DNA of 64,000 nucleotides from an uncultured Clostridia bacterium (GCA_947626145.1 CANQRB010000004.1:29250-93249); one strand, 5' to 3'. Shown: positions 4,721 to 63,975, counted from the first letter of the stretch. The notes: a model not told the origin generated them from the sequence alone. A program made the numbers and translations.

Positions 4721-7700
4721 TTACAGCTCGGGAATGAAGTCGACTTCCGCACCAGCGGAATCAGCTTCGGTCTCGGCGATTTCGGTACTTACAAACTCAA
4801 TCTCAACACTGTCTAGGCTGAAGATCATAGCACCATCAACGCCTTCACAAGTAACATCATTGCCATTGATAGTTATCTTATAGAACAAGCCCTCAGTTTG
4901 AGTTGCTGTTTTATCTGTGCCGTTTACATCAACAATGGTAGATACCTTGAAGCCTATACCATTATCGTAAAGGGCTTTATCCAGTTCTATCGTTGTTCCT
5001 GCTTCACTGCTTGTAACTTTAATGAATTCTTTACGAACATCGTTAATAGCGTTCTTGTCATCAAGAACAACACCGCCGGTGCTGAGAATAGCAATGGCCT
5101 GTTCAAGCTTTTTTGCATCAAATTTTTCACGATTCAAAGTATCTTTGTAGTCGCTAAGGTTGGTTTTGATATCGTTAGCAAGCAACTCATAAAGAGATGC
5201 TTCAGCTTGAGCGATGAGATAACCGCTATTTGTGTCAACAAGCCTTGCCATATAGTAAATATTGCTTCCATTGTCTTTTTTCGGAATAACAAGTACAGAC
5301 GGAGCCCCGTTACTGAGGACAGAAGTGTCTATAGTCGTATTGTCTACTCCTTTACCGCCTTTTTCATTTGTTGTTTCGTGAAGATCAATAGCTGTAACCT
5401 TTAGCGTCTGTCCATCATAAGCACCATCGGCAGTAAAAGTTATGCCCAAAGTATCCGCACTGTCTCCATCAGCAGCAAAGCCAAGTCCAGCGGTGAGTGT
5501 AGCCGTCGCAGGAACGTCCACGCCACCTGCATATACGGCAAACTTGCTGATCTCAAGGTCTCCTTCACTTGAGGGATTGTTTCCAAAGAAGGAAACACCG
5601 TCAATTCCTCCATTGTTACGGAATGGTATGCCCATCAACATTTTACCTTCACCGGATGATTCATTCCGCACGGAAAGATTATATGTGTTATTTGTAACAT
5701 CAACATCTACGATAAAAGCATATGACTGATTAAGCTCCATTGTCATAAATTCTTTCTTGGCGGCGTTGTCTCTGTAGTAAATTTTGTCGCCACCGATAGG
5801 CAAATGAATACGAAGATTTGTGCCATACGCATCTGTCCCTTTTGCGTCGTACTTAAAAAATCCGATAGCGTTGTCGCCGTTTTGTTTGGCAACAAGAGTA
5901 AATGCGACGGTAAATTTGTCTGATATTTCTTTAGGGAAACGATACATTTCACTAAATGTCCTACCCTGATTGTTGATTACTGAGTTAGAACCAACGGTCA
6001 TGCCGGCTGTAGGATCAAATGTCTTTTCATGAGTCACAACATTTGCCGTCAAGGTAAGGCCTGTATCGGCGATAGTGCCGGTAGTATCCTCCCATGTTAC
6101 GGGCAATTCCTCGGCTGTCACTGCATCACTGTCAACAGTGGTCTTAATTGCGGTGGGAAGAACATAGTTATATCCTTCGAGAGTATTAATGTCAATGCTG
6201 TCGGGGCCGGTGATGGTGGCAGTTAACTCGGCCTCAACCTCAATTTCCTTAGTAGTGGTTGCGATAATAGTATCCTGATCAGACGCCTTATTGGTATAAT
6301 ATTTATCTGCTATGCGACGATTAGTAATAATCTTGCCATCACTGGCGGCACGGCCTTGATCAACGACCTGGTTTTCTGCAACTTTTACCGTTTCGCCTAC
6401 CTTGCCGGTCTGTTTCTCGATAGTGGCTACAGTTTGACCCTTGTATTTGGCATTTATGACGTAATCCACATCGTCGTTTTCAAGATTGCTAAGTTTGGTT
6501 ATTTTGAAGTTGTCGATGATGGGCTGAGTATCGTTACCGACCCAAGCGGTCTTAAAGCCCAGTTTTGTCTGCTTGGAACCGGTCCATACAATAAACTGCT
6601 TCGTCTCAAATTGATTGAGAGTGTGCAGGGTCATCTGCTGAAGCTTTTGGCTGGTATTGTCATTTTTGTCGGCATACCAATCAGCGCAGGGGTCGTCGGC
6701 CTCGCCGGTGCCATTGGCATCGGTTACGTAAAGCCACATATACTGATCCTTTGCCTGCTTGGTTGGCATGACGTCAAAGCTCACGAGATAACGGGTATTG
6801 GGGTCAACATTCCAAGTGCCGCCGAAAACAGTTCCGGCCGCACCGGCAACGCCCTTGAGCCAAAGAGCCTGGCTTCCTTCGGTCTTTTGGTTCTCACCCT
6901 TGACTATCTCATATTCTTCATTGGGTATATTAGTCCAACCATTAATACCATTTTCAAAGCCGTCGTTGGTGCCGGTAACAGTTCCCTCGACATTTTTTAC
7001 ATGTTTGGCGGTAATGTCGTAGTTGTTATTACCTTCACTCAAAGTGATCTCTTTGATTTCGGGGAGAGCAAGTTCATAAAGCTTTTCATTTTTAACAAGG
7101 TACTTGTTGCAACTGTTGAGAGAAAACTTATCTCCGGCAAAGTATTCCTTTTTATTTCCGTTTGGATTAGACTCCTCCAAAACATTTCCGCCGTCCATTA
7201 TGCGAACATTGACAGCAGCGTCGGGAGACAAAACCTTAACATCAGCAAGGTAAGCATCCTTAAGAGAAGCTACACCCCCAGTGGCATCTCCGCCGTGGAT
7301 ATTGGAGAGCAGAAAAGCGACCTTACCACCAACTATCTTATCGGCAGGAATACGGAGCTGAGACGTCACCTCAGTCCATGAATTAGATACATTTGATGTA
7401 CTCAGTGTTCCGACAAGAACTCTGCCCTCAACAGCAGTATCGAGCAGAGCGTTGTTCTCAGCTTCAACAGCTGCAGGGTCAACAGCAAAAATGGCAGCTT
7501 TAGATATACGGTCGTTAGCACCATTGTTAGACCATGCCTGAACCTTAAAGGTAGCCCGAAGAATTTGACCGGCAGCAACATTAGTGTCTTCTGGCAGTGT
7601 GAATTCAGCAAAACCCGCACGGTTATTTGAGAAAGACACTATGGCAGACTGAGCGTCTTGAACTTTGTATTCGTCAAATGTTTGCGGACGCTTAGCATCG

Positions 7701-7825
7701 GAATTAAAATTCCAACCATAAAGCTTATCTGCGGCGATATCTCCATCAGCCGCAAAAGCTACGGGCACTACTGTCAATACCATGGCCAAAACCACAGCCA
7801 ATGACAGAACTTTTTTGATTCTCAT
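4721..7825 (-). CDS. Large secreted multidomain surface protein (signal peptide; CBM4/9-like carbohydrate-binding and bacterial Ig-like regions); no SLH or LPXTG anchor seen
   Basis: N-terminal signal peptide MRIKKVLSLAVVLAMVLTVVPVAFA|AD. GFENGINGW...W segment typical of CBM_4_9. Ig-like beta-rich segments. Strong RBS GGAGGTAACAAAAATG. Confidence 0.7.
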   Translation of the reverse strand: MRIKKVLSLAVVLAMVLTVVPVAFAADGDIAADKLYGWNFNSDAKRPQTFDEYKVQDAQSAIVSFSNNRAGFAEFTLPEDTNVAAGQILRATFKVQAWSNNGANDRISKAAIFAVDPAAVEAENNALLDTAVEGRVLVGTLSTSNVSNSWTEVTSQLRIPADKIVGGKVAFLLSNIHGGDATGGVASLKDAYLADVKVLSPDAAVNVRIMDGGNVLEESNPNGNKKEYFAGDKFSLNSCNKYLVKNEKLYELALPEIKEITLSEGNNNYDITAKHVKNVEGTVTGTNDGFENGINGWTNIPNEEYEIVKGENQKTEGSQALWLKGVAGAAGTVFGGTWNVDPNTRYLVSFDVMPTKQAKDQYMWLYVTDANGTGEADDPCADWYADKNDNTSQKLQQMTLHTLNQFETKQFIVWTGSKQTKLGFKTAWVGNDTQPIIDNFKITKLSNLENDDVDYVINAKYKGQTVATIEKQTGKVGETVKVAENQVVDQGRAASDGKIITNRRIADKYYTNKASDQDTIIATTTKEIEVEAELTATITGPDSIDINTLEGYNYVLPTAIKTTVDSDAVTAEELPVTWEDTTGTIADTGLTLTANVVTHEKTFDPTAGMTVGSNSVINNQGRTFSEMYRFPKEISDKFTVAFTLVAKQNGDNAIGFFKYDAKGTDAYGTNLRIHLPIGGDKIYYRDNAAKKEFMTMELNQSYAFIVDVDVTNNTYNLSVRNESSGEGKMLMGIPFRNNGGIDGVSFFGNNPSSEGDLEISKFAVYAGGVDVPATATLTAGLGFAADGDSADTLGITFTADGAYDGQTLKVTAIDLHETTNEKGGKGVDNTTIDTSVLSNGAPSVLVIPKKDNGSNIYYMARLVDTNSGYLIAQAEASLYELLANDIKTNLSDYKDTLNREKFDAKKLEQAIAILSTGGVVLDDKNAINDVRKEFIKVTSSEAGTTIELDKALYDNGIGFKVSTIVDVNGTDKTATQTEGLFYKITINGNDVTCEGVDGAMIFSLDSVEIEFVSTEIAETEADSAGAEVDFIPEL

Positions 7826-7906: not shown

Positions 7907-8023
7907 AAATTTATGCCGTTTTACGGCAATATTTACAACATAAAAATGAAAATTAGAAATTATTTGTTGAAATTGCACAATTACTCACAACAATTTTGTA
8001 CATTATGGATAAGGGAAAGATAT

Positions 8024-59059: not shown

Positions 59060-59566
59060 TTATCTGAAAATTCTGCTCCTCACATAAACCGACATTCCGT
59101 CCAGTATTTTGTCGTTGGGCTCGAACACCAGCATACAGCTGCCGCCCTCGCCGGCAAACACGGCGAACATAGCGCCGGAAGCATCGGGAGCGGACGCCGC
59201 CTGTATCACCTTGGCGAAGCTCCGCTTCATCTCCCCCTTTTTGTCCGGATCGTCAACCCGGGCGCAGAGCTCCATGGCCTCCATATCGAAGCCGCAGAGC
59301 CGCCGGCGGTTCCTGCCGCCGATTATCACGTCCACGTCCAGATGGTCGTTGGTGAGGATATATTCAAATTCTCTTTTTATGCCGGAGGCCAGCCACCAGG
59401 CCCCATAGCCTCCCAGCACCAGAAGCACCAAAGCGCTGGCAAAGCCCAGCCACAGTCCGGCTCCGCCGCATATCACGAACAGAGCCAGGATTATGAGACA
59501 GTATTTGAGCATATCGCTTCGGTCGAATTTTTTCTTTACAAGATATTCAGTATAGTTTTCCATCAA
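59060..59566 (-). CDS. Hypothetical membrane protein (two TM helices)
   Basis: Hydrophobic segments IILALFVICGGAGLWLGFASALVLLVLGGYGAWWL; 4-nt overlap with the PBP stop. Confidence 0.5.
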   Translation of the reverse strand: MMENYTEYLVKKKFDRSDMLKYCLIILALFVICGGAGLWLGFASALVLLVLGGYGAWWLASGIKREFEYILTNDHLDVDVIIGGRNRRRLCGFDMEAMELCARVDDPDKKGEMKRSFAKVIQAASAPDASGAMFAVFAGEGGSCMLVFEPNDKILDGMSVYVRSRIFR

Positions 59567-62235
59567 AAGCCTCCGTCGCTTACGACCTCGCCGCCGGAAG
59601 GAGCGGTTCCGCCGCCGTCACCGCCGCCGGAGGGAGCCACGCTGCCGCCGCCACCGCCGGAGGGCGTTACACTGCCGCCGCCCGAAGGCGTTACGCTGCC
59701 GCCACCGCCGCCGGAAGGTGTTACGCTGCCGCTGTCGCCGCCGCCGGAAGGCGTTACGCTGCCGCTGTCACCACCGCCGGAAGGCGTTACGCTGCCGCTG
59801 TCGCCGCCGCCCGAAGGCGTTACGCTGCCGCCACCGCCGGAGGGTGTTGTGCTGCCGCTGTCGCTGCCGCCGGAGGGCGTTGTGCTGCCGCTGCCGTCGC
59901 CGCCGCCGGAGCCATCACCGCCCGCGGGCTCGGCGGAAACCGTTTCGCCGCCTTCGCCCGAGGTCGTTTCGCCTGAGCCGGAGCCGGAGCTTCCGGAATC
60001 GTCATCATCGTCGGAGCTGCTGCCGGAACTCGTATTACGCCTTGACGACGAGCCGCTGCTGCTTGTCGCCTTGCCCTCGCTGAGGACATTCTTGCTGCCG
60101 GTCACAAGGGGATGGAGCTTGCAGCGCGTAGTGGGGATGCTGCCGCTCTTGAAAATCTGACTCTCCACACGGTCACAGCCCGGATTGGCCCGCTGTCCGC
60201 TGTCGGAGCAGATCATCACCGAGACCTCCTTGCCGGGTCTCTCGAAATCCTTATATTTCAGATCCTCGTGAATGGGCATCATCACCTTGCGCCAGGTGAG
60301 GGCCGCCGGGTTGGAAGAAAATCCGCTGAGGTTCCGGGGCTGGTCATAGCCGAACCACACCGCGCCCACATAATAGGGTGTCATACCCACGAACCAGCGG
60401 TCATTGCTGGTGGTGGTGCCGGTGGTGCCGGTCTTGCCGGCTATTTCCATTCCGCTGAAGTTGGCCATCTTGCCGCTGCCGTAGCTGACAACGTCCTTAA
60501 GCATCGAGATCATGTCGGCGGCGGTCTTTTCGCTCATGGCTATCTCATGGGTGGGCTCGCCGCTGAGGATAACGCCGCCGTTGGCGTCCAGCACCCTGGT
60601 GTAAAGGGTGGGCTTGTTGTAAAAGCCGTCGTTGACAAAGGAGCAGTAGGCCGCCGTGAGCTCAAGCACGCTGACGCCGTCGGTAAGGCCGCCGAGGGCC
60701 AGAGGCGCCAGATCCTTATCGGAGAAGGTCTTGCCGTTGCGCTCCTCAAAATCCACAAGGGTGGAAATGTGCATACGCTCGGTCATATAGTCGAAGGAAT
60801 TGTCCACGCCGAGGTAACGGCACACCTTGACGGCGGGCACGTTACGGGAATTGGCAAGGGCGCTGCGAACCGAAACGTTGCCCACAAAGCGGTTGTCCAC
60901 GTTTTTCGGGGACCAGCCGTTATAGGTGACGGGGGCGTCCTTTACCGTGGAGGTGGGCGTTATGAGGCCGTATTCCATGGCCGGACCGTAAACGCCGATG
61001 GGCTTGATCGTGGAACCCGGCTGGCGCAGGGACTGAGTGGCACGGTTAAGTGTGAGGTTGCCCTCCTTATCTCCGCGTCCGCCCACAAGGGCCTTTACCT
61101 GGCCGGTATAGGGATCCATTATGACCATGGCGGACTCGGGCTGTACCTCGCCCCTGCCCTTGGGGAACGCCGACTCGTCGGCGTACACGTCGTCCATGAT
61201 CTGCTGGAGGTTCATATCCTGAGCCAGATATATCTTGAGGCCGCCGTTAAATAGAACGCGCTGGGCTATATCCTTTGTATAGTTATACTGGGTCATAAGA
61301 TCGTCAATGATCTGGTTTATGGCCGCGTCAACATAGTAGCTCTGATAAACTATCTCATCCTGAGTCTTAAGGGGCACAAAATGGAGCTCCTGCGCCACGG
61401 CATCCTCATACTGAGCCTGAGTGATGTGGCCCAGCTCAAGCATTTTTCCAAGGACTACCTCCTGCCGCTCCTTATTGTTTTGGGGATTTGCGTAGGGGTC
61501 GTACTTGGAAGGGGACTGGGTTATGCCGGCTATGCAGGCGCACTCGGCCAGAGACAGCTCCGATACGGGCTTGCCGAAATATACGTTGGCCGCCGAGGAA
61601 ACGCCGTTGCACTGCTGACTCAGGAAAATGGTATTAAGGTAATATTCGAGGATTTCTTCCTTGGACAGCTCATCCTCCAGCTTGAAGGCCCGGTATATCT
61701 CCTGAATTTTTCTTTCAACGCTGTAGCCCTTTTCGCCGGTAATGTTCTTTATGAGCTGCTGTGTCAAGGTGCTTCCGCCGAAGGTACGGTCGCTGGTGCC
61801 CCTGATCTTGCCGTAGACATAGGTTACCGTCGCGCCTATGGTACGCTTGATGTCAACGCCCTTATGGCTCCAGAAGCGCTCGTCCTCAATGTCAATGAAG
61901 GCGTTCTGAAGGTCCTTGGGTATATCGTCAAGGTCCACCCAGATGCGGTTTTCGTTGTCATAGAGCCGCTGCACCTCAACGGTGTTGCCGTCGGGGTCGG
62001 TGCCGTAAACAAAGGACGTCATGTTCAGCTTTATGTTGTTCACGTCGATGGTGTCCACGGTCTCAACATAGCCGAACAGGGCTCCCGCCACTATACCGGC
62101 GCCGATAATGCCGATGAGCAGCACAATGAGCAGCAGCGCCAGAAAGACGTTCCTGAACGACAGGAGAATCGCCATTCCGACGCTTCTCTTCTTTTTGCCG
62201 GAAGAGGTTCCCCTCCGAGTTCTGTCATTTGCCAT
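59563..62235 (-). CDS. Class A penicillin-binding protein (PBP1A: glycosyltransferase GT51 plus transpeptidase) with a low-complexity Gly/Ser/Thr/Pro C-terminal tail; start MANDRT at 62235
   Basis: GT51 motifs (EDERFWSHKGVD, GGSTLTQQLIKN) and TP motifs (STIKP, SRN, KTGT); GGAGGTG RBS 9 nt before ATG 62235. Confidence 0.9.
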   Translation of the reverse strand: MANDRTRRGTSSGKKKRSVGMAILLSFRNVFLALLLIVLLIGIIGAGIVAGALFGYVETVDTIDVNNIKLNMTSFVYGTDPDGNTVEVQRLYDNENRIWVDLDDIPKDLQNAFIDIEDERFWSHKGVDIKRTIGATVTYVYGKIRGTSDRTFGGSTLTQQLIKNITGEKGYSVERKIQEIYRAFKLEDELSKEEILEYYLNTIFLSQQCNGVSSAANVYFGKPVSELSLAECACIAGITQSPSKYDPYANPQNNKERQEVVLGKMLELGHITQAQYEDAVAQELHFVPLKTQDEIVYQSYYVDAAINQIIDDLMTQYNYTKDIAQRVLFNGGLKIYLAQDMNLQQIMDDVYADESAFPKGRGEVQPESAMVIMDPYTGQVKALVGGRGDKEGNLTLNRATQSLRQPGSTIKPIGVYGPAMEYGLITPTSTVKDAPVTYNGWSPKNVDNRFVGNVSVRSALANSRNVPAVKVCRYLGVDNSFDYMTERMHISTLVDFEERNGKTFSDKDLAPLALGGLTDGVSVLELTAAYCSFVNDGFYNKPTLYTRVLDANGGVILSGEPTHEIAMSEKTAADMISMLKDVVSYGSGKMANFSGMEIAGKTGTTGTTTSNDRWFVGMTPYYVGAVWFGYDQPRNLSGFSSNPAALTWRKVMMPIHEDLKYKDFERPGKEVSVMICSDSGQRANPGCDRVESQIFKSGSIPTTRCKLHPLVTGSKNVLSEGKATSSSGSSSRRNTSSGSSSDDDDDSGSSGSGSGETTSGEGGETVSAEPAGGDGSGGGDGSGSTTPSGGSDSGSTTPSGGGGSVTPSGGGDSGSVTPSGGGDSGSVTPSGGGDSGSVTPSGGGGGSVTPSGGGSVTPSGGGGGSVAPSGGGDGGGTAPSGGEVVSDGGF
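59600..59900 (-). repeat. In-frame 33-bp tandem repeat (about 9 units, encodes DSGSVTPSGGG) within the PBP1A 3' end
   Basis: Repeated unit ccgccgccggaaggcgttacgctgccgctgtcg with minor variants, visible directly in the DNA. Confidence 0.7.
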
Positions 62236-62443
62236 AAAAAGCGCACCTCCGAAGTTATTTGAGGAGTAGTAATTATAGAAAGACATAATTAACTTATTAT
62301 ATTTTACATCAAAACCGTTAAAAAAGTATTACAAAATCCCCTTTTTCCACTTTTATTTTGCGGGAAATTGCATTTTGAATTTTTACTGCGCATATTGCAC
62401 AAAAACATTGTAAAATTATTGTATAATTCTGACAAAATGCTTC

Positions 62444-62472
62444 TTGCAAAACCTGAAACCCTGTGGTAAGAT
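62444..62472 (+). promoter_or_regulatory. Promoter P1 (TTGCAA-17-TAAGAT) driving leader copy 1
   Basis: Hexamers with 17-nt spacing about 15 nt upstream of the conserved leader. Confidence 0.4.
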
Positions 62473-62488
62473 ATATACGTACTCGATG

Positions 62489-62560
62489 AGAGTGCAAAAA
62501 CTTTTTTCATTTTCCCTCCTTTTTTAGTGGCAGATACACAGTGTCTGTCATTTTTTTTGC
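62489..62560 (+). promoter_or_regulatory. Leader/attenuator copy 1: conserved about 72-nt element ending in a hairpin (ggcagatacACAgtgtctgtc) plus T8 intrinsic terminator
   Basis: Near-identical to 62679-62749; 9-bp stem with one G-U pair followed by TTTTTTTT. Confidence 0.5.
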
Positions 62561-62632
62561 GCTCTGCCGCCGTTATTATAAGTTTTGCACAAAACCTCGC
62601 CGCTTTCTTTATAAAAATTGAATAAAATTACC

Positions 62633-62663
62633 GTTGATATGGCGCTTTAAAAGCTGATATAAT
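62633..62663 (+). promoter_or_regulatory. Promoter P2 (TTGATA-17-TATAAT) driving leader copy 2 and the DUF815 ATPase gene
   Basis: -35 at 62635-62640 and -10 at 62658-62663, exact 17-nt spacer. Confidence 0.5.
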
Positions 62664-62678
62664 AACAGTGCGCCAGTA

Positions 62679-62749
62679 GAGTGCATAAGTTTTTTTCATT
62701 TTCCCTCCTTTTTTAGTGGCAGATACAACGTGTCTGTCATTTTTTTTGC
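62679..62749 (+). promoter_or_regulatory. Leader/attenuator copy 2: same conserved element plus terminator hairpin/T7, 30 nt upstream of the ATPase start codon
   Basis: GAGTGCAtAAgTTTTTTTCATTTTCCCTCCTTTTTTAGTGGCAGATACAACGTGTCTGTCATTTTTTTTGC. Confidence 0.5.
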
Positions 62750-62778
62750 AATAATACTACCTTAAAAGAGGTGCCGTC

Positions 62779-63975
62779 ATGAACAGATACGCTTATTTAA
62801 ACTCCCGTCTGGGTACGCTGACCGTATTCCGCAATATCCTCGGCGAGCCCGTGATAGCAAGGCTAAGGGAGCTTCTCTCCTGCGAGGACTGGGACAAGCT
62901 CCGTCTGGCCGAGCTGTACTGCGGCTTTGTACACGAGCTGTACCTCACCGGAGACAGCCTTACCGACTGGGTGCTGCGGTACATATCCGGCGACGAAAAC
63001 CCATACGTGGGCCGCATTATTTCCGGCGGGGTTCCGGGTAAGTTAATGGAAGAGAGCCTGACAAACGAGCTGAAAATTCTTGAAGAGCTGGCCGCGCTGG
63101 ACTGCGGAGAGGTTGCGGAGGCCATTAACTGCGGGCTTGAGCTGCCCCGCTGGGAGAGCCGCCGCGAGGATCTGACCGCCGCCTGCCGCCGGAGAATTGC
63201 CGAGATACCCACCAGGGGCTACGGTATATTTGCCAAATATCATATGTTCACCCTGGACGGCGACGGAAATCTCGTGCCCGTCCGCCATCCCGACCCACAG
63301 ACTCTTGACAGCCTCTACGGCTATCAGCGGGAGAGGGAGACCGTAATGCGCAACACCCTCGCCCTTATCGAGGGCCGGGGCGCCAACAACGTCCTCCTCT
63401 ACGGGGACGCCGGCACCGGTAAGAGCTCCACGGTCAAGGCCATCGCCAACGCCCTTAAGGACAGGGGTCTGCGCCTTATCGAGGTCAGGAAAAACCAGCT
63501 CTACCTGCTGCCGGGGCTGATGGACAGCCTTGAGGGCAGCCCGCTGAAATACATCATATTTATTGACGATCTGAGCTTCGGCGGCGGGGACGCCGACTTT
63601 GCCGCCCTGAAGGCCATACTGGAGGGCAGCGTCAGCAGCCGCGGCACAAACGTGGCCGTTTACGCCACCAGCAACCGCCGCCATCTGCTTAAGGAGAGCA
63701 TGAGCGACCGTGACGGGGACGACATTCACGCCTCCGACACCCGTCAGGAGCAGCTGAGCCTTTCCGCCCGCTTCGGCCTGACGGTGACCTTCCTCCGGCC
63801 GGAGCATGAGCTTTACTGCGAAATAGTGGAAAAGCTGGCCCGTGAGCACGGCATAACCATGGACAGGGATCGGCTTCTGGTCAAGGCTGAGGCCCACGCC
63901 ATCAGGAACGGCGGCCGCAGCCCCCGCACCGCCAAGCAGTTTGTGGAAATGCTCAGTCAGGGAGTTATAGAATAA
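62779..63975 (+). CDS. AAA-type ATPase of the DUF815/COG2607 family
   Basis: Walker A GDAGTGKSSTVKA, Walker B YIIFIDDLSF; RBS AAAGAGGTG. Confidence 0.75.
   Translation: MNRYAYLNSRLGTLTVFRNILGEPVIARLRELLSCEDWDKLRLAELYCGFVHELYLTGDSLTDWVLRYISGDENPYVGRIISGGVPGKLMEESLTNELKILEELAALDCGEVAEAINCGLELPRWESRREDLTAACRRRIAEIPTRGYGIFAKYHMFTLDGDGNLVPVRHPDPQTLDSLYGYQRERETVMRNTLALIEGRGANNVLLYGDAGTGKSSTVKAIANALKDRGLRLIEVRKNQLYLLPGLMDSLEGSPLKYIIFIDDLSFGGGDADFAALKAILEGSVSSRGTNVAVYATSNRRHLLKESMSDRDGDDIHASDTRQEQLSLSARFGLTVTFLRPEHELYCEIVEKLAREHGITMDRDRLLVKAEAHAIRNGGRSPRTAKQFVEMLSQGVIE

What the first reader, a model, noticed from the sequence alone, without database searches (positions are those of the whole stretch)
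62444..62778. Duplicated promoter-leader-terminator module (attenuator-like) upstream of a DUF815 ATPase
Two about 72-nt elements (62489-62560 and 62679-62749), roughly 90% identical, each follow a good sigma-A promoter (P1 TTGCAA-17-TAAGAT; P2 TTGATA-17-TATAAT) and end in the same hairpin plus U7-8 intrinsic terminator. The second terminator lies only 30 nt upstream of the ATPase RBS. This is the layout of a transcription-attenuation (riboswitch or leader-peptide) control region. Copy 1 would make a free-standing about 80-nt RNA, and copy 2 gates the ATPase gene. The conserved leader (GAGTGCA...TTTTCCCTCCTTTTTTAGTGGCAGATAC...) matches no riboswitch class I recognise. The pyrimidine tract TTTTCCCTCC could pair with the RBS GGAGG of the opposite-strand micro-ORFs, or act as an anti-anti-terminator.
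Basis: seen in the sequence. Interest (0 to 1): 0.6.

Follow-up and report, generated by a model that had tools for sequence, protein, structure and literature searches.

The report
Tandem genes for a conserved small RNA
The duplicated promoter-to-terminator module is most likely not a riboswitch for the ATPase gene but two tandem copies of a previously undescribed ~80-nt small RNA gene, found in about 42 species of uncultured gut Clostridia, whose invariant pyrimidine-rich stretch is the exact complement of a ribosome-binding site plus start codon.

Summary
Two 72-nt repeats (62489-62560 and 62678-62749, 93% identical) each sit behind their own sigma-70-type promoter. Each ends in a 12-bp hairpin plus U8, and the structure forms only on the + strand.

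The attenuator or riboswitch reading is not supported:
- The same unit occurs in about 42 species-level genomes of Oscillospiraceae/Clostridia MAGs, in at least five unrelated gene contexts.
- Some of those sites have a convergent downstream gene, so the unit cannot be a 5' leader there.
- DUF815 orthologues at 56-58% identity lack it.
- No Rfam family matches.
- Copy 1 has no antiterminator. The linker has no G in copy 1 and one in copy 2.

Each unit looks like a complete small-RNA gene. It has a 17-bp palindrome (TTGTGCAAnTTGCACAA) centred exactly at -85, an extended -10 promoter, a covarying 5'-terminal hairpin, an invariant single-stranded tract AAACUUUUUUCAUUUUCCCUCCUUUU, and a terminator. 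Metagenomic variants keep the tract and the palindrome but swap the 5' end and the terminator.

Best reading: two paralogous trans-acting sRNA genes that block SD/AUG regions. In this genome the DUF815 gene has no promoter of its own, so it can only be transcribed by read-through of copy 2's terminator. Targets and expression are untested.

The parts
62386..62402 (.). Degenerate copy (CTGCGCATATTGCACAA, 3 mismatches) of the family's 17-bp palindrome TTGTGCAAnTTGCACAA, centred 85 nt upstream of sRNA copy 1. Presumed transcription-factor site.
   Evidence: The palindrome is centred at exactly -85 in 45 of 54 distinct promoters of the family. Shuffled upstream regions never come closer than 4 mismatches.
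62444..62472 (+). Promoter P1: -35 TTGCAA, 17-nt spacer, TGn-extended -10 TAAGAT.
   Evidence: Read from the sequence. It lies at the same position as TTGCAA-17-TAAAAT in L003. It falls below the scan threshold (8 of 12).
62479..62558 (+). sRNA copy 1 (~80 nt). 5'-terminal hairpin 62479-62495; single-stranded seed 62496-62526 (AAAAACUUUUUUCAUUUUCCCUCCUUUUUUA); terminator stem-loop 62527-62551; U8 at 62551-62558.
   Evidence: (90.4 bits). The transcription start is inferred from the position of the -10 box.
62576..62592 (.). Half-conserved palindrome box (TTATAAGTTTTGCACAA; right half perfect), centred 84 nt upstream of copy 2.
62634..62663 (+). Promoter P2: TTGATA, 18-nt spacer, TGaTATAAT.
   Evidence: 11 of 12, TG present.
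62668..62747 (+). sRNA copy 2 (~78-80 nt). 5' hairpin 62668-62686 (GUGCGC/GUGCAU); seed 62687-62715; terminator 62716-62740; U8 at 62740-62747.
   Evidence: (83.7 bits).
62766..63975 (+). SD (AAGAGGTG, 62766-62773) and DUF815 AAA+ ATPase gene (ATG at 62779). There is no promoter between copy 2's terminator and the SD, so transcription has to come from read-through.
   Evidence: Read-through itself is inferred.
59563..62286 (-). Divergent class-A penicillin-binding protein gene (transglycosylase plus transpeptidase; likely true start near 62235, MANDRT...). It is the syntenic left neighbour of the sRNA genes in this lineage.

Best explanation
The region holds two tandem, independently transcribed paralogous genes for a conserved ~80-nt trans-acting small RNA.

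Each gene has the following parts, in order:
- a probable transcription-factor operator, a 17-bp palindrome centred at -85;
- an AT-rich upstream region;
- a sigma-A-type promoter with an extended -10;
- a transcription start at the first G of a 5'-terminal stem-loop, which would act as a stabiliser;
- a ~28-nt unstructured tract, AAACUUUUUUCAUUUUCCCUCCUUUU(U)AG, made of pyrimidines and A with almost no G;
- a strong intrinsic terminator.

The tract is the perfect complement of a Shine-Dalgarno sequence, spacer, AUG and AAAAAAG. The most likely mechanism is therefore base-pairing across the translation-initiation regions of target mRNAs, which would block ribosome binding. This is how the C-rich sRNAs of Firmicutes work.

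In this genome the second gene lies 18 nt upstream of the DUF815 ribosome-binding site with no promoter in between. The ATPase can therefore only be made from transcripts that read through the sRNA terminator(s). That is a passive, lineage-specific arrangement, not a sensing attenuator.

Shown here: the repeat, the strand-specific structure, the conservation, independence from gene context, covariation, and the promoter and operator motifs.
Inferred: transcription, trans-action, SD/AUG occlusion, and read-through.
For: 1. Anatomy and strand specificity.

2. Family. An exact-pattern scan of one genome per species gave 51 stretches, of which 49 are true, from about 42 species, all Clostridia/Oscillospiraceae MAGs. 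The 51 distinct variants all fold as a 5' hairpin, an unpaired tract and a terminator.

3. Covariation.
- The first pair inside the GUAC/GUAC stem is U-A in 24 variants and C-G in 22 (47 of 51 paired).
- The first inner pair of the terminator is C-G in 36, U-G in 6 and U-A in 2.
- Overall, 98.9% of cells are paired, against 23-58% when the 3' partners are slid by 1-3 columns.
- A G-to-A change in L002 turns a G-U pair into A-U.

4. Independence of context.
- Between PBP1A and DUF815.
- About 60 nt upstream of sipL, which has its own promoter-like box.
- Downstream of an Fe-hydrogenase gene, with a convergent next gene (ThiT, AraC, HsdS).
- Upstream of nrdD.
- Other contexts.
- Several genomes carry copies at 2-3 separate loci.
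- In one genome PBP and DUF815 are unlinked, and each keeps one copy (L064, L012).

5. Every copy has its own promoter and the -85 palindrome.

6. Metagenomic variants keep the tract and the palindrome. They replace the 5' hairpin with an unstructured CA-rich end and use unrelated terminators. The R1 model still detects them at 26-51 bits. The tract is therefore the constrained, functional part.

7. No coding potential. The + strand 13-codon ORF exists only in copy 1. T-run length (4-7) shifts the frame. The opposite-strand ORFs are not conserved.

8. No Rfam family matches. The pattern is absent from viral contigs.
Against: - There is no expression data, so promoters, the 5' end and termination are all consensus-based predictions.
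- No specific target was found. In the window and the fetched loci the best TIR duplexes are about -20 to -23 kcal/mol (population mean -10 +/- 5.6). They look like generic SD matches.
- A 28-nt invariant tract is longer than typical sRNA seeds. That could instead indicate a protein-binding site.
- In the window's own clade (ATPase at least 61% identical) the element is always next to DUF815. In four lineages it sits within ~35 nt of the RBS, so a cis contribution cannot be excluded.
- Copy 2 has a weak possible antiterminator (-8.9 kcal/mol).
- Formal covariation is modest, because most stem positions are invariant.
Confidence: 0.65

Rival explanations
1. Cis-acting transcription attenuator or leader of the DUF815 gene. 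A factor or ligand would modulate termination at copy 2, and perhaps copy 1, to gate ATPase expression.
For: - In the window there is no promoter between the copy 2 terminator and the ATPase SD.
- The same tight arrangement occurs in L003, L008 and L025.
- The element is present upstream of all DUF815 orthologues at 61% identity or more that have enough upstream sequence.
- In copy 2 the 5' end GUGCGCCA can pair with the terminator 5' arm at -8.9 kcal/mol.
- The read-through transcript is predicted to pair the tract with the ATPase SD.
Against: - Most family members are not next to DUF815, and some cannot be leaders at all because the downstream gene is convergent.
- Relatives have a separate ATPase promoter after the terminator (L026+L007, L010, L059).
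- DUF815 genes at 56-58% identity lack the element.
- Copy 1 and the other family members have no antiterminator. There is no aptamer-like structure, and the linker is essentially free of G.
- The terminator plus 5' hairpin (-18.9 kcal/mol) far outcompete the copy 2 alternative.
- No Rfam hit.
Confidence: 0.1
2. A protein-binding (decoy or sponge) small RNA. The invariant U/C-rich tract would be a high-affinity site for an RNA-binding protein (Hfq, a KH-domain protein such as KhpB, a cold-shock protein or S1) and not an antisense seed.
For: - The invariant stretch, about 28 nt, is longer than needed for seed pairing.
- No specific mRNA target was found.
- A U-rich stretch before the terminator plus a poly-U tail resembles Hfq-binding modules (general knowledge).
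- CsfG, a CU-rich Bacillus sRNA, co-purifies with Hfq (PMC3574147).
Against: - The tract is an exact complement of SD-spacer-AUG-AAAAAA with correct spacing. That would be an odd coincidence for a pure protein site.
- Only about 0.5 Mb of carrier genomes could be searched for targets, so failing to find one carries little weight.
Confidence: 0.15
3. An antisense or coding element: a type I toxin-antitoxin pair or micro-ORF on the opposite strand (SD + ATG + Lys-Lys), or a 13-aa peptide (MRVQKLFSFSLLF) on the + strand.
For: - The opposite strand reads AAAAGGAGGGAAAATGAAAAAA, a textbook translation start.
- Copy 1 has an ATG-initiated 13-codon frame ending at the conserved TAG.
Against: - The opposite-strand ORFs are MKKV-stop in about 20 species and unrelated 23-68-aa strings elsewhere, with frames broken by indels.
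- The - strand has no structure or terminator.
- The + strand ORF lacks an ATG in copy 2 and in most family members, and T-run length shifts the frame.
Confidence: 0.03

Closest known systems
C-rich / anti-SD trans-acting sRNAs of Firmicutes (RsaE/RoxS, FsrA, LhrC1-5, CsfG)
   Same: Short RNAs with their own promoter and an intrinsic terminator. They expose C/U-rich single-stranded motifs (UCCC, CCUCC) that pair with Shine-Dalgarno regions. LhrC genes are also tandemly repeated. CsfG has conserved CU-rich stretches and was first mistaken for a leader (the ylbH motif) (PMC3574147; the rest from general knowledge).
   Different: - No sequence or structure match to their Rfam models at E up to 10.
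- There is one long linear tract instead of C-rich loops.
- The tract also covers the start codon and two Lys codons.
- The family is restricted to uncultured Oscillospiraceae-like Clostridia.
- It has its own palindromic operator at -85.
Bacillus sRNA ncr1241 (Rfam RF02451)
   Same: It is the best Rfam hit and has the same outline: a small hairpin, a UUCCC-containing stretch, and a terminator with U6. It is an intergenic (yugI-alaT) sRNA candidate seen by Northern blot (PMC2965217).
   Different: The scores are 27 and 22 bits against a gathering score of 60. The 5' hairpin pairs are flagged as non-canonical in the alignment. The similarity is mostly a generic terminator plus a pyrimidine run, so this is not a member.
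Tandem duplicated sRNA genes such as PrrF1/PrrF2 or OmrA/OmrB (general knowledge)
   Same: Two near-identical sRNA genes sit head to tail, each with its own regulated promoter and terminator. Read-through of the first can give longer transcripts.
   Different: The phylum and sequence are unrelated. Here read-through of the second copy would also carry a protein-coding gene (DUF815).
Riboswitch- or attenuator-derived terminated leaders (for example SreA/SreB)
   Same: A short terminated RNA is made directly upstream of an ORF that depends on read-through. This is the layout in this window.
   Different: There is no aptamer, no conserved antiterminator, no link to one gene family, and the unit is often free-standing.

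Membership tests
Riboswitch / transcription attenuator | Always located in the 5' UTR of a co-oriented regulated gene or gene family | tested here: not met
   There are at least five unrelated contexts. The downstream gene is convergent in L016 (ThiT), L039 (AraC) and L054 (HsdS).
Riboswitch / transcription attenuator | Mutually exclusive terminator and antiterminator structures | tested here: not met
   Copy 1 has no alternative pairing of the terminator 5' arm. Copy 2 has only a weak, non-conserved one (-8.9 against -18.9 kcal/mol). The linker has 0-1 G.
Riboswitch / transcription attenuator | A conserved structured aptamer, or a leader peptide ORF with regulatory codons | tested here: not met
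   The only structure is a 5-8-bp 5' hairpin and the terminator. No conserved ORF exists on either strand. There is no Rfam hit.
Trans-acting base-pairing sRNA (generic class) | An autonomous transcription unit: its own promoter and an intrinsic terminator, independent of neighbouring genes | tested here: met
   A promoter-like -35 and extended -10 and the -85 palindrome occur in front of every copy. A terminator follows every copy. Neighbours vary. This is a sequence-level test only.
Trans-acting base-pairing sRNA (generic class) | A conserved, accessible (single-stranded) seed region | tested here: met
   AAACUUUUUUCAUUUUCCCUCCUUUU is invariant in 51 variants and unpaired in every fold. It is retained when the scaffold is swapped.
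Trans-acting base-pairing sRNA (generic class) | Identified mRNA targets with conserved complementarity | tested here: inconclusive
   Only generic SD-type matches were found in about 0.5 Mb of carrier DNA.
Trans-acting base-pairing sRNA (generic class) | The RNA is actually expressed at the predicted size | not testable with these tools
   No transcriptome data are available.
RsaE/RoxS, CsfG (ylbH), ncr1241 Rfam families | Score at or above the family's gathering threshold | tested here: not met
   ncr1241 scores 27 bits against 60. There is no hit to RsaE or ylbH at E up to 10 on either strand.
Type I toxin-antitoxin | A conserved small hydrophobic toxin ORF overlapped by the antisense RNA | tested here: not met
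   The opposite-strand ORF is MKKV-stop in many species and not conserved elsewhere.

The most novel reading that the evidence does not exclude
The sRNA could be a clade-wide master regulator. Its unusually long invariant tract would recognise the generic signature 'SD - AUG - AAA AAA G' (Met-Lys-Lys-Val...) that marks mRNAs of exported and membrane proteins. It would therefore throttle translation of much of the secretome in one step, under the control of a dedicated transcription factor that binds the -85 palindrome. Pressure from many targets at once would explain why 26-28 nt are frozen while the scaffolds are exchanged. Chance exact complements of the tract in metagenomes are mostly signal-peptide gene starts.
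Probability: 0.15. Interest if true: 0.75.

Novelty: new member of a known kind. Interest (0 to 1): 0.5.

Why it matters
Almost nothing is known about RNA regulators in the uncultured Oscillospiraceae-like Clostridia that populate animal and human guts. This unit defines a new, sharply conserved sRNA family with three features that can be followed up:
- It is present in about 42 species and absent from Rfam and from the searchable literature.
- It has a clear candidate mechanism, occlusion of the SD and start codon.
- It has an associated operator motif that points to an unidentified transcription factor and regulon.

It is also a practical warning for annotation: a promoter-leader-terminator module directly upstream of an ORF can be an independent sRNA gene and not a riboswitch. 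In this genome the tandem copies additionally make expression of the DUF815 ATPase depend on terminator read-through.

Tried and rejected
- Rfam at E up to 10 on the locus, and at gathering thresholds on nine related loci. Only a sub-threshold ncr1241 hit and a tRNA were found.
- Leader-peptide or micro-ORF reading on both strands. Rejected, because the ORFs are not conserved.
- Target search by ungapped complementarity and by RNAduplex over the window and over all predicted TIRs in the fetched loci. Only the elements themselves and generic SD matches came up.
- Hypothesis that the extended antisense of the variant scaffolds (MKKVLCIGYGT-like) points to an hbd-type Rossmann gene. No Hbd homologue was found in any held sequence by tblastn, using a query recalled from memory. 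Indels between variants are not in frame. Left open, not supported.
- Pairing of the sRNA 3' arm with the PBP start region (AAAUGACAGA). It is not conserved in L003 or L006, so it is treated as chance.
- Literature searches for the tract, its complement and the palindrome found nothing relevant. The CsfG paper itself was not held.
- Viral contig scan: no hits. No sign of a mobile element, such as terminal repeats or multiple dispersed copies in the window.
- My first idea that the sipL promoter overlaps the sRNA terminator was dropped. A separate CATATATT box lies closer to sipL.

Full report

Yes. The repeat finder reports one 72-nt direct repeat, 62489-62560 and 62678-62749, 93% identical and 189 nt apart.
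- A 28-nt core occurs exactly twice in the window, against 0 expected in shuffles.
- Each copy ends in a 12-pair, 3-nt-loop hairpin followed by T8 (62526-62552 and 62715-62741).
- P2 is a near-consensus extended -10 promoter, TTGATA-18-TGaTATAAT.
- P1 (TTGCAA-17-TGgTAAGAT) is weaker and below the scanner's cut-off. It sits where relatives have TTGCAA-17-TAAAAT.
- Folding is strand-specific. The + strand RNAs fold at -22.4 and -16.9 kcal/mol (z = -4.3 and -2.6). The reverse strands are no better than shuffles, because two stem positions are G-U pairs.
- The downstream ORF (62779-63975) is a DUF815 AAA+ ATPase (E = 3.7e-82). The divergent upstream gene is a class-A PBP.

**2. What is it?**

*Close relatives.* Near-identical contigs and ATPase orthologues at 96%, 80%, 70%, 69% and 66% identity all carry the element, in one or two copies. 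Each copy has its own promoter. Loop and wobble positions change while pairing is kept. In L002, for example, a G-to-A change converts a G-U pair into A-U.

*Genome-wide distribution.* I scanned one genome per species (185,579 species) with TCATTTTCCCTCCTTTTN{0,4}AGTGG.
- The scan returned 51 stretches, and 49 are genuine. Two (Desulfocapsaceae, Neobacillus) are ordinary gene starts.
- The genuine hits come from about 42 species, all uncultured Clostridia/Oscillospiraceae MAGs from rabbit, ruminant and human guts.
- Only about a third of these stretches contain DUF815 or the PBP.

*Other gene contexts*:
- about 60 nt upstream of the spore-coat morphogenesis gene sipL (about 20 loci), where a separate CATATATT-type promoter box precedes sipL;
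- about 95-130 nt downstream of an Fe-only hydrogenase gene, followed by a convergent gene (ThiT in L016, an AraC regulator in L039, HsdS in L054);
- 260-300 nt upstream of nrdD;
- several others.

Several genomes have copies at two or three separate loci. In one genome (CAZICW) PBP and DUF815 are unlinked, and each keeps one copy (L064 and L012/L021). A unit with a convergent downstream neighbour cannot be a 5' leader.

*Limits of the DUF815 link.*
- DUF815 orthologues at 58% and 56% identity have their own promoter and no element.
- Within the carrier clade, L026+L007 (adjacent contigs of one genome), L010/L033 and L059 have a promoter-like site between the sRNA terminator and the ATPase gene.

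**3. Anatomy of the family**

All 51 distinct variants fold the same way.
- *5' hairpin.* It starts at the predicted +1. It has an almost invariant GUAC/GUAC base and covarying inner pairs. The first inner pair is U-A in 24 variants and C-G in 22, with 47 of 51 paired. The second is C-G in 21 and U-A in 6.
- *Unpaired tract.* AAACUUUUUUCAUUUUCCCUCCUUUU(U0-3)AG is invariant.
- *Terminator.* It reads UGGCAGAC...GUCUGUCA plus U7-10, with some compensatory changes. One example is GGCAAAC/GUUUGUC in L064. The first inner pair is C-G in 36 variants, U-G in 6 and U-A in 2.
- *Formal pair counts.* On the MAFFT alignment 98.9% of cells are paired, against 23-58% when the 3' partners are slid by 1-3 columns. 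The covariation score exceeds all 500 shuffles. Most stem positions never vary, however, so this evidence is modest.
- *Other copies.* A covariance model built from the alignment finds only the two copies in the window, at 90 and 84 bits.

*Upstream operator.* Every copy also carries a 17-bp palindrome, TTGTGCAAnTTGCACAA.
- It is centred at exactly -85 from the hairpin start in 45 of 54 distinct promoters, and 11 of those are perfect.
- Shuffled upstream regions never come closer than 4 mismatches.
- The window's copies are degenerate: 62386-62402 has 3 mismatches, and 62576-62592 has a perfect right half only.
- This is most simply a transcription-factor site belonging to the sRNA gene. The factor is unknown. 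The spacing (TGTG-N7-CACA) differs by one base pair from Rex/CRP-type sites (my recollection of those consensus sequences).

*Scaffold variants.* A metagenome scan with only the 5' part of the tract (AACTTTTTTCATTTTCCCTCC) returned 45 stretches.
- Five are standard family members.
- About 11 are new scaffold variants. They have the same tract and the same upstream palindrome. The 5' end is unstructured and CA-rich, and the terminators are unrelated. The model still detects them at 26-51 bits.
- The remainder are reverse complements of ordinary gene starts (SD + MKKV...), mostly signal peptides or Rossmann N-termini.

So the tract is the constrained part and the flanking hairpins are interchangeable. 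This is the signature of a functional single-stranded seed.

**4. Mechanism**

The tract is the exact complement of 5'-CUAAAAGGAGGGAAAAUGAAAAAAGUUU-3', that is, SD, spacer, start codon and two Lys codons. The most economical mechanism is antisense occlusion of translation-initiation regions in trans, as for the C-rich sRNAs of Firmicutes (RsaE/RoxS, LhrC, CsfG; general knowledge and PMC3574147). In that model the 5' hairpin and the terminator provide stability, and the U-rich stretches are a possible Hfq site.

This step is inferred.
- RNAduplex scans of the window and of about 1,200 predicted TIRs in the fetched loci gave only generic SD-type matches (-20 to -23 kcal/mol, against a mean of -10).
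- A protein-decoy role for the long pyrimidine tract is the main rival.

*Is there regulated attenuation in this window?*
- Copy 1 has no alternative structure. With the 3' arm withheld, only the 5' hairpin forms.
- The linker has no G in copy 1 and one in copy 2.
- Copy 2 alone can pair its atypical 5' end (GUGCGCCA) with the terminator 5' arm. The energy is only -8.9 kcal/mol, against -18.9 for the hairpin-plus-terminator fold. The pairing is absent from other family members.
- No promoter fits between 62747 and the SD at 62766. DUF815 here must therefore be transcribed by read-through from P2 and/or P1. The predicted read-through RNA pairs the tract with the ATPase SD.
- I regard this as passive, lineage-specific coupling.

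**5. Comparison with known systems**

- *Rfam.* There is no match. The best hit is ncr1241 at 27 bits against a gathering score of 60. Nothing matches RsaE or ylbH/CsfG.
- *ncr1241.* It is an intergenic B. subtilis sRNA candidate (PMC2965217). The similarity is a terminator plus a pyrimidine run.
- *Literature.* The tract, its complement and the palindrome are absent from the searchable literature.
- *Mobile origin.* The pattern is absent from viral contigs.
- *Functional class.* The unit belongs with CU-rich anti-SD sRNAs. Its tandem arrangement resembles LhrC1-4, PrrF1/2 or OmrA/B (general knowledge). It is not a member of any described family.

**6. Verdict**

The free-standing short RNA and the terminator in front of the ATPase gene are right. 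The attenuator or riboswitch reading is not supported.
- This is a new sRNA family of a known kind, of moderate interest.
- The unusually long invariant tract, the scaffold swapping and the dedicated operator make it a good candidate for experimental follow-up.

Noticed in passing
window 62386-62402 and 62576-62592; every family promoter in L014-L064: A 17-bp palindrome, TTGTGCAAnTTGCACAA, sits at a fixed position (centre -85) upstream of nearly every copy of the sRNA gene, including the scaffold variants. It is probably an operator for an unidentified transcription factor.
   Followed up: partly
window 7964-7980 and 4721-7825 (minus strand): A second near-match to the palindrome (TTGTTGAAATTGCACAA, 2 mismatches) lies about 147 nt upstream of a 1034-aa secreted-protein gene (MRIKKVLSLAVV...). 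That gene's TIR is partly complementary to the sRNA tract. It is not significant on its own (0.34 matches expected by chance).
   Followed up: partly
window copies 1 and 2; L003, L008, L010, L058, L059: Tandem copies within one genome share the same terminator stem and loop type, while genomes differ from each other. This suggests concerted evolution (gene conversion) or repeated duplication.
   Followed up: no
L056:6981-7094: A third, unlinked copy occurs in the closest sequenced relative (ATPase 96% identical). It carries an extra 12-bp hairpin inserted between the tract and the terminator. The window's genome probably has further copies outside the window.
   Followed up: partly
L068, L073, L078, L107, L084, L094, L097, L090, L095, L070: These scaffold variants of the sRNA have a conserved unstructured CA-rich 5' end (ACCAYAACCRAUACAC...) in place of the 5' hairpin. 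It may be a second pairing region.
   Followed up: partly
L015, L019, L022, L046-L050 and others, between the sRNA terminator and sipL: A conserved GCATAA/GGAATA ... CATATATT box about 30 nt upstream of sipL looks like a mother-cell sporulation sigma (E/K-type) promoter. The consensus is recalled from memory.
   Followed up: no
window 62316-62337 (also L006, L008, L010): A conserved motif, TTAAAAAAGTATTACAAAA, lies between the PBP start and the sRNA promoter region in PBP-linked loci. It is possibly part of the PBP promoter or 5' UTR.
   Followed up: no
window 59563-60100 (minus strand): The C-terminus of the class-A PBP is a long low-complexity Gly/Ser/Thr/Pro repeat (GGGDSGSVTPSGGG...).
   Followed up: no
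L009:1 and L013:1 (Logan assemblies): Both short-read contigs break at the same place inside the invariant tract. This is consistent with an assembly-graph break at a multi-copy repeat and is not a transcript end.
   Followed up: no
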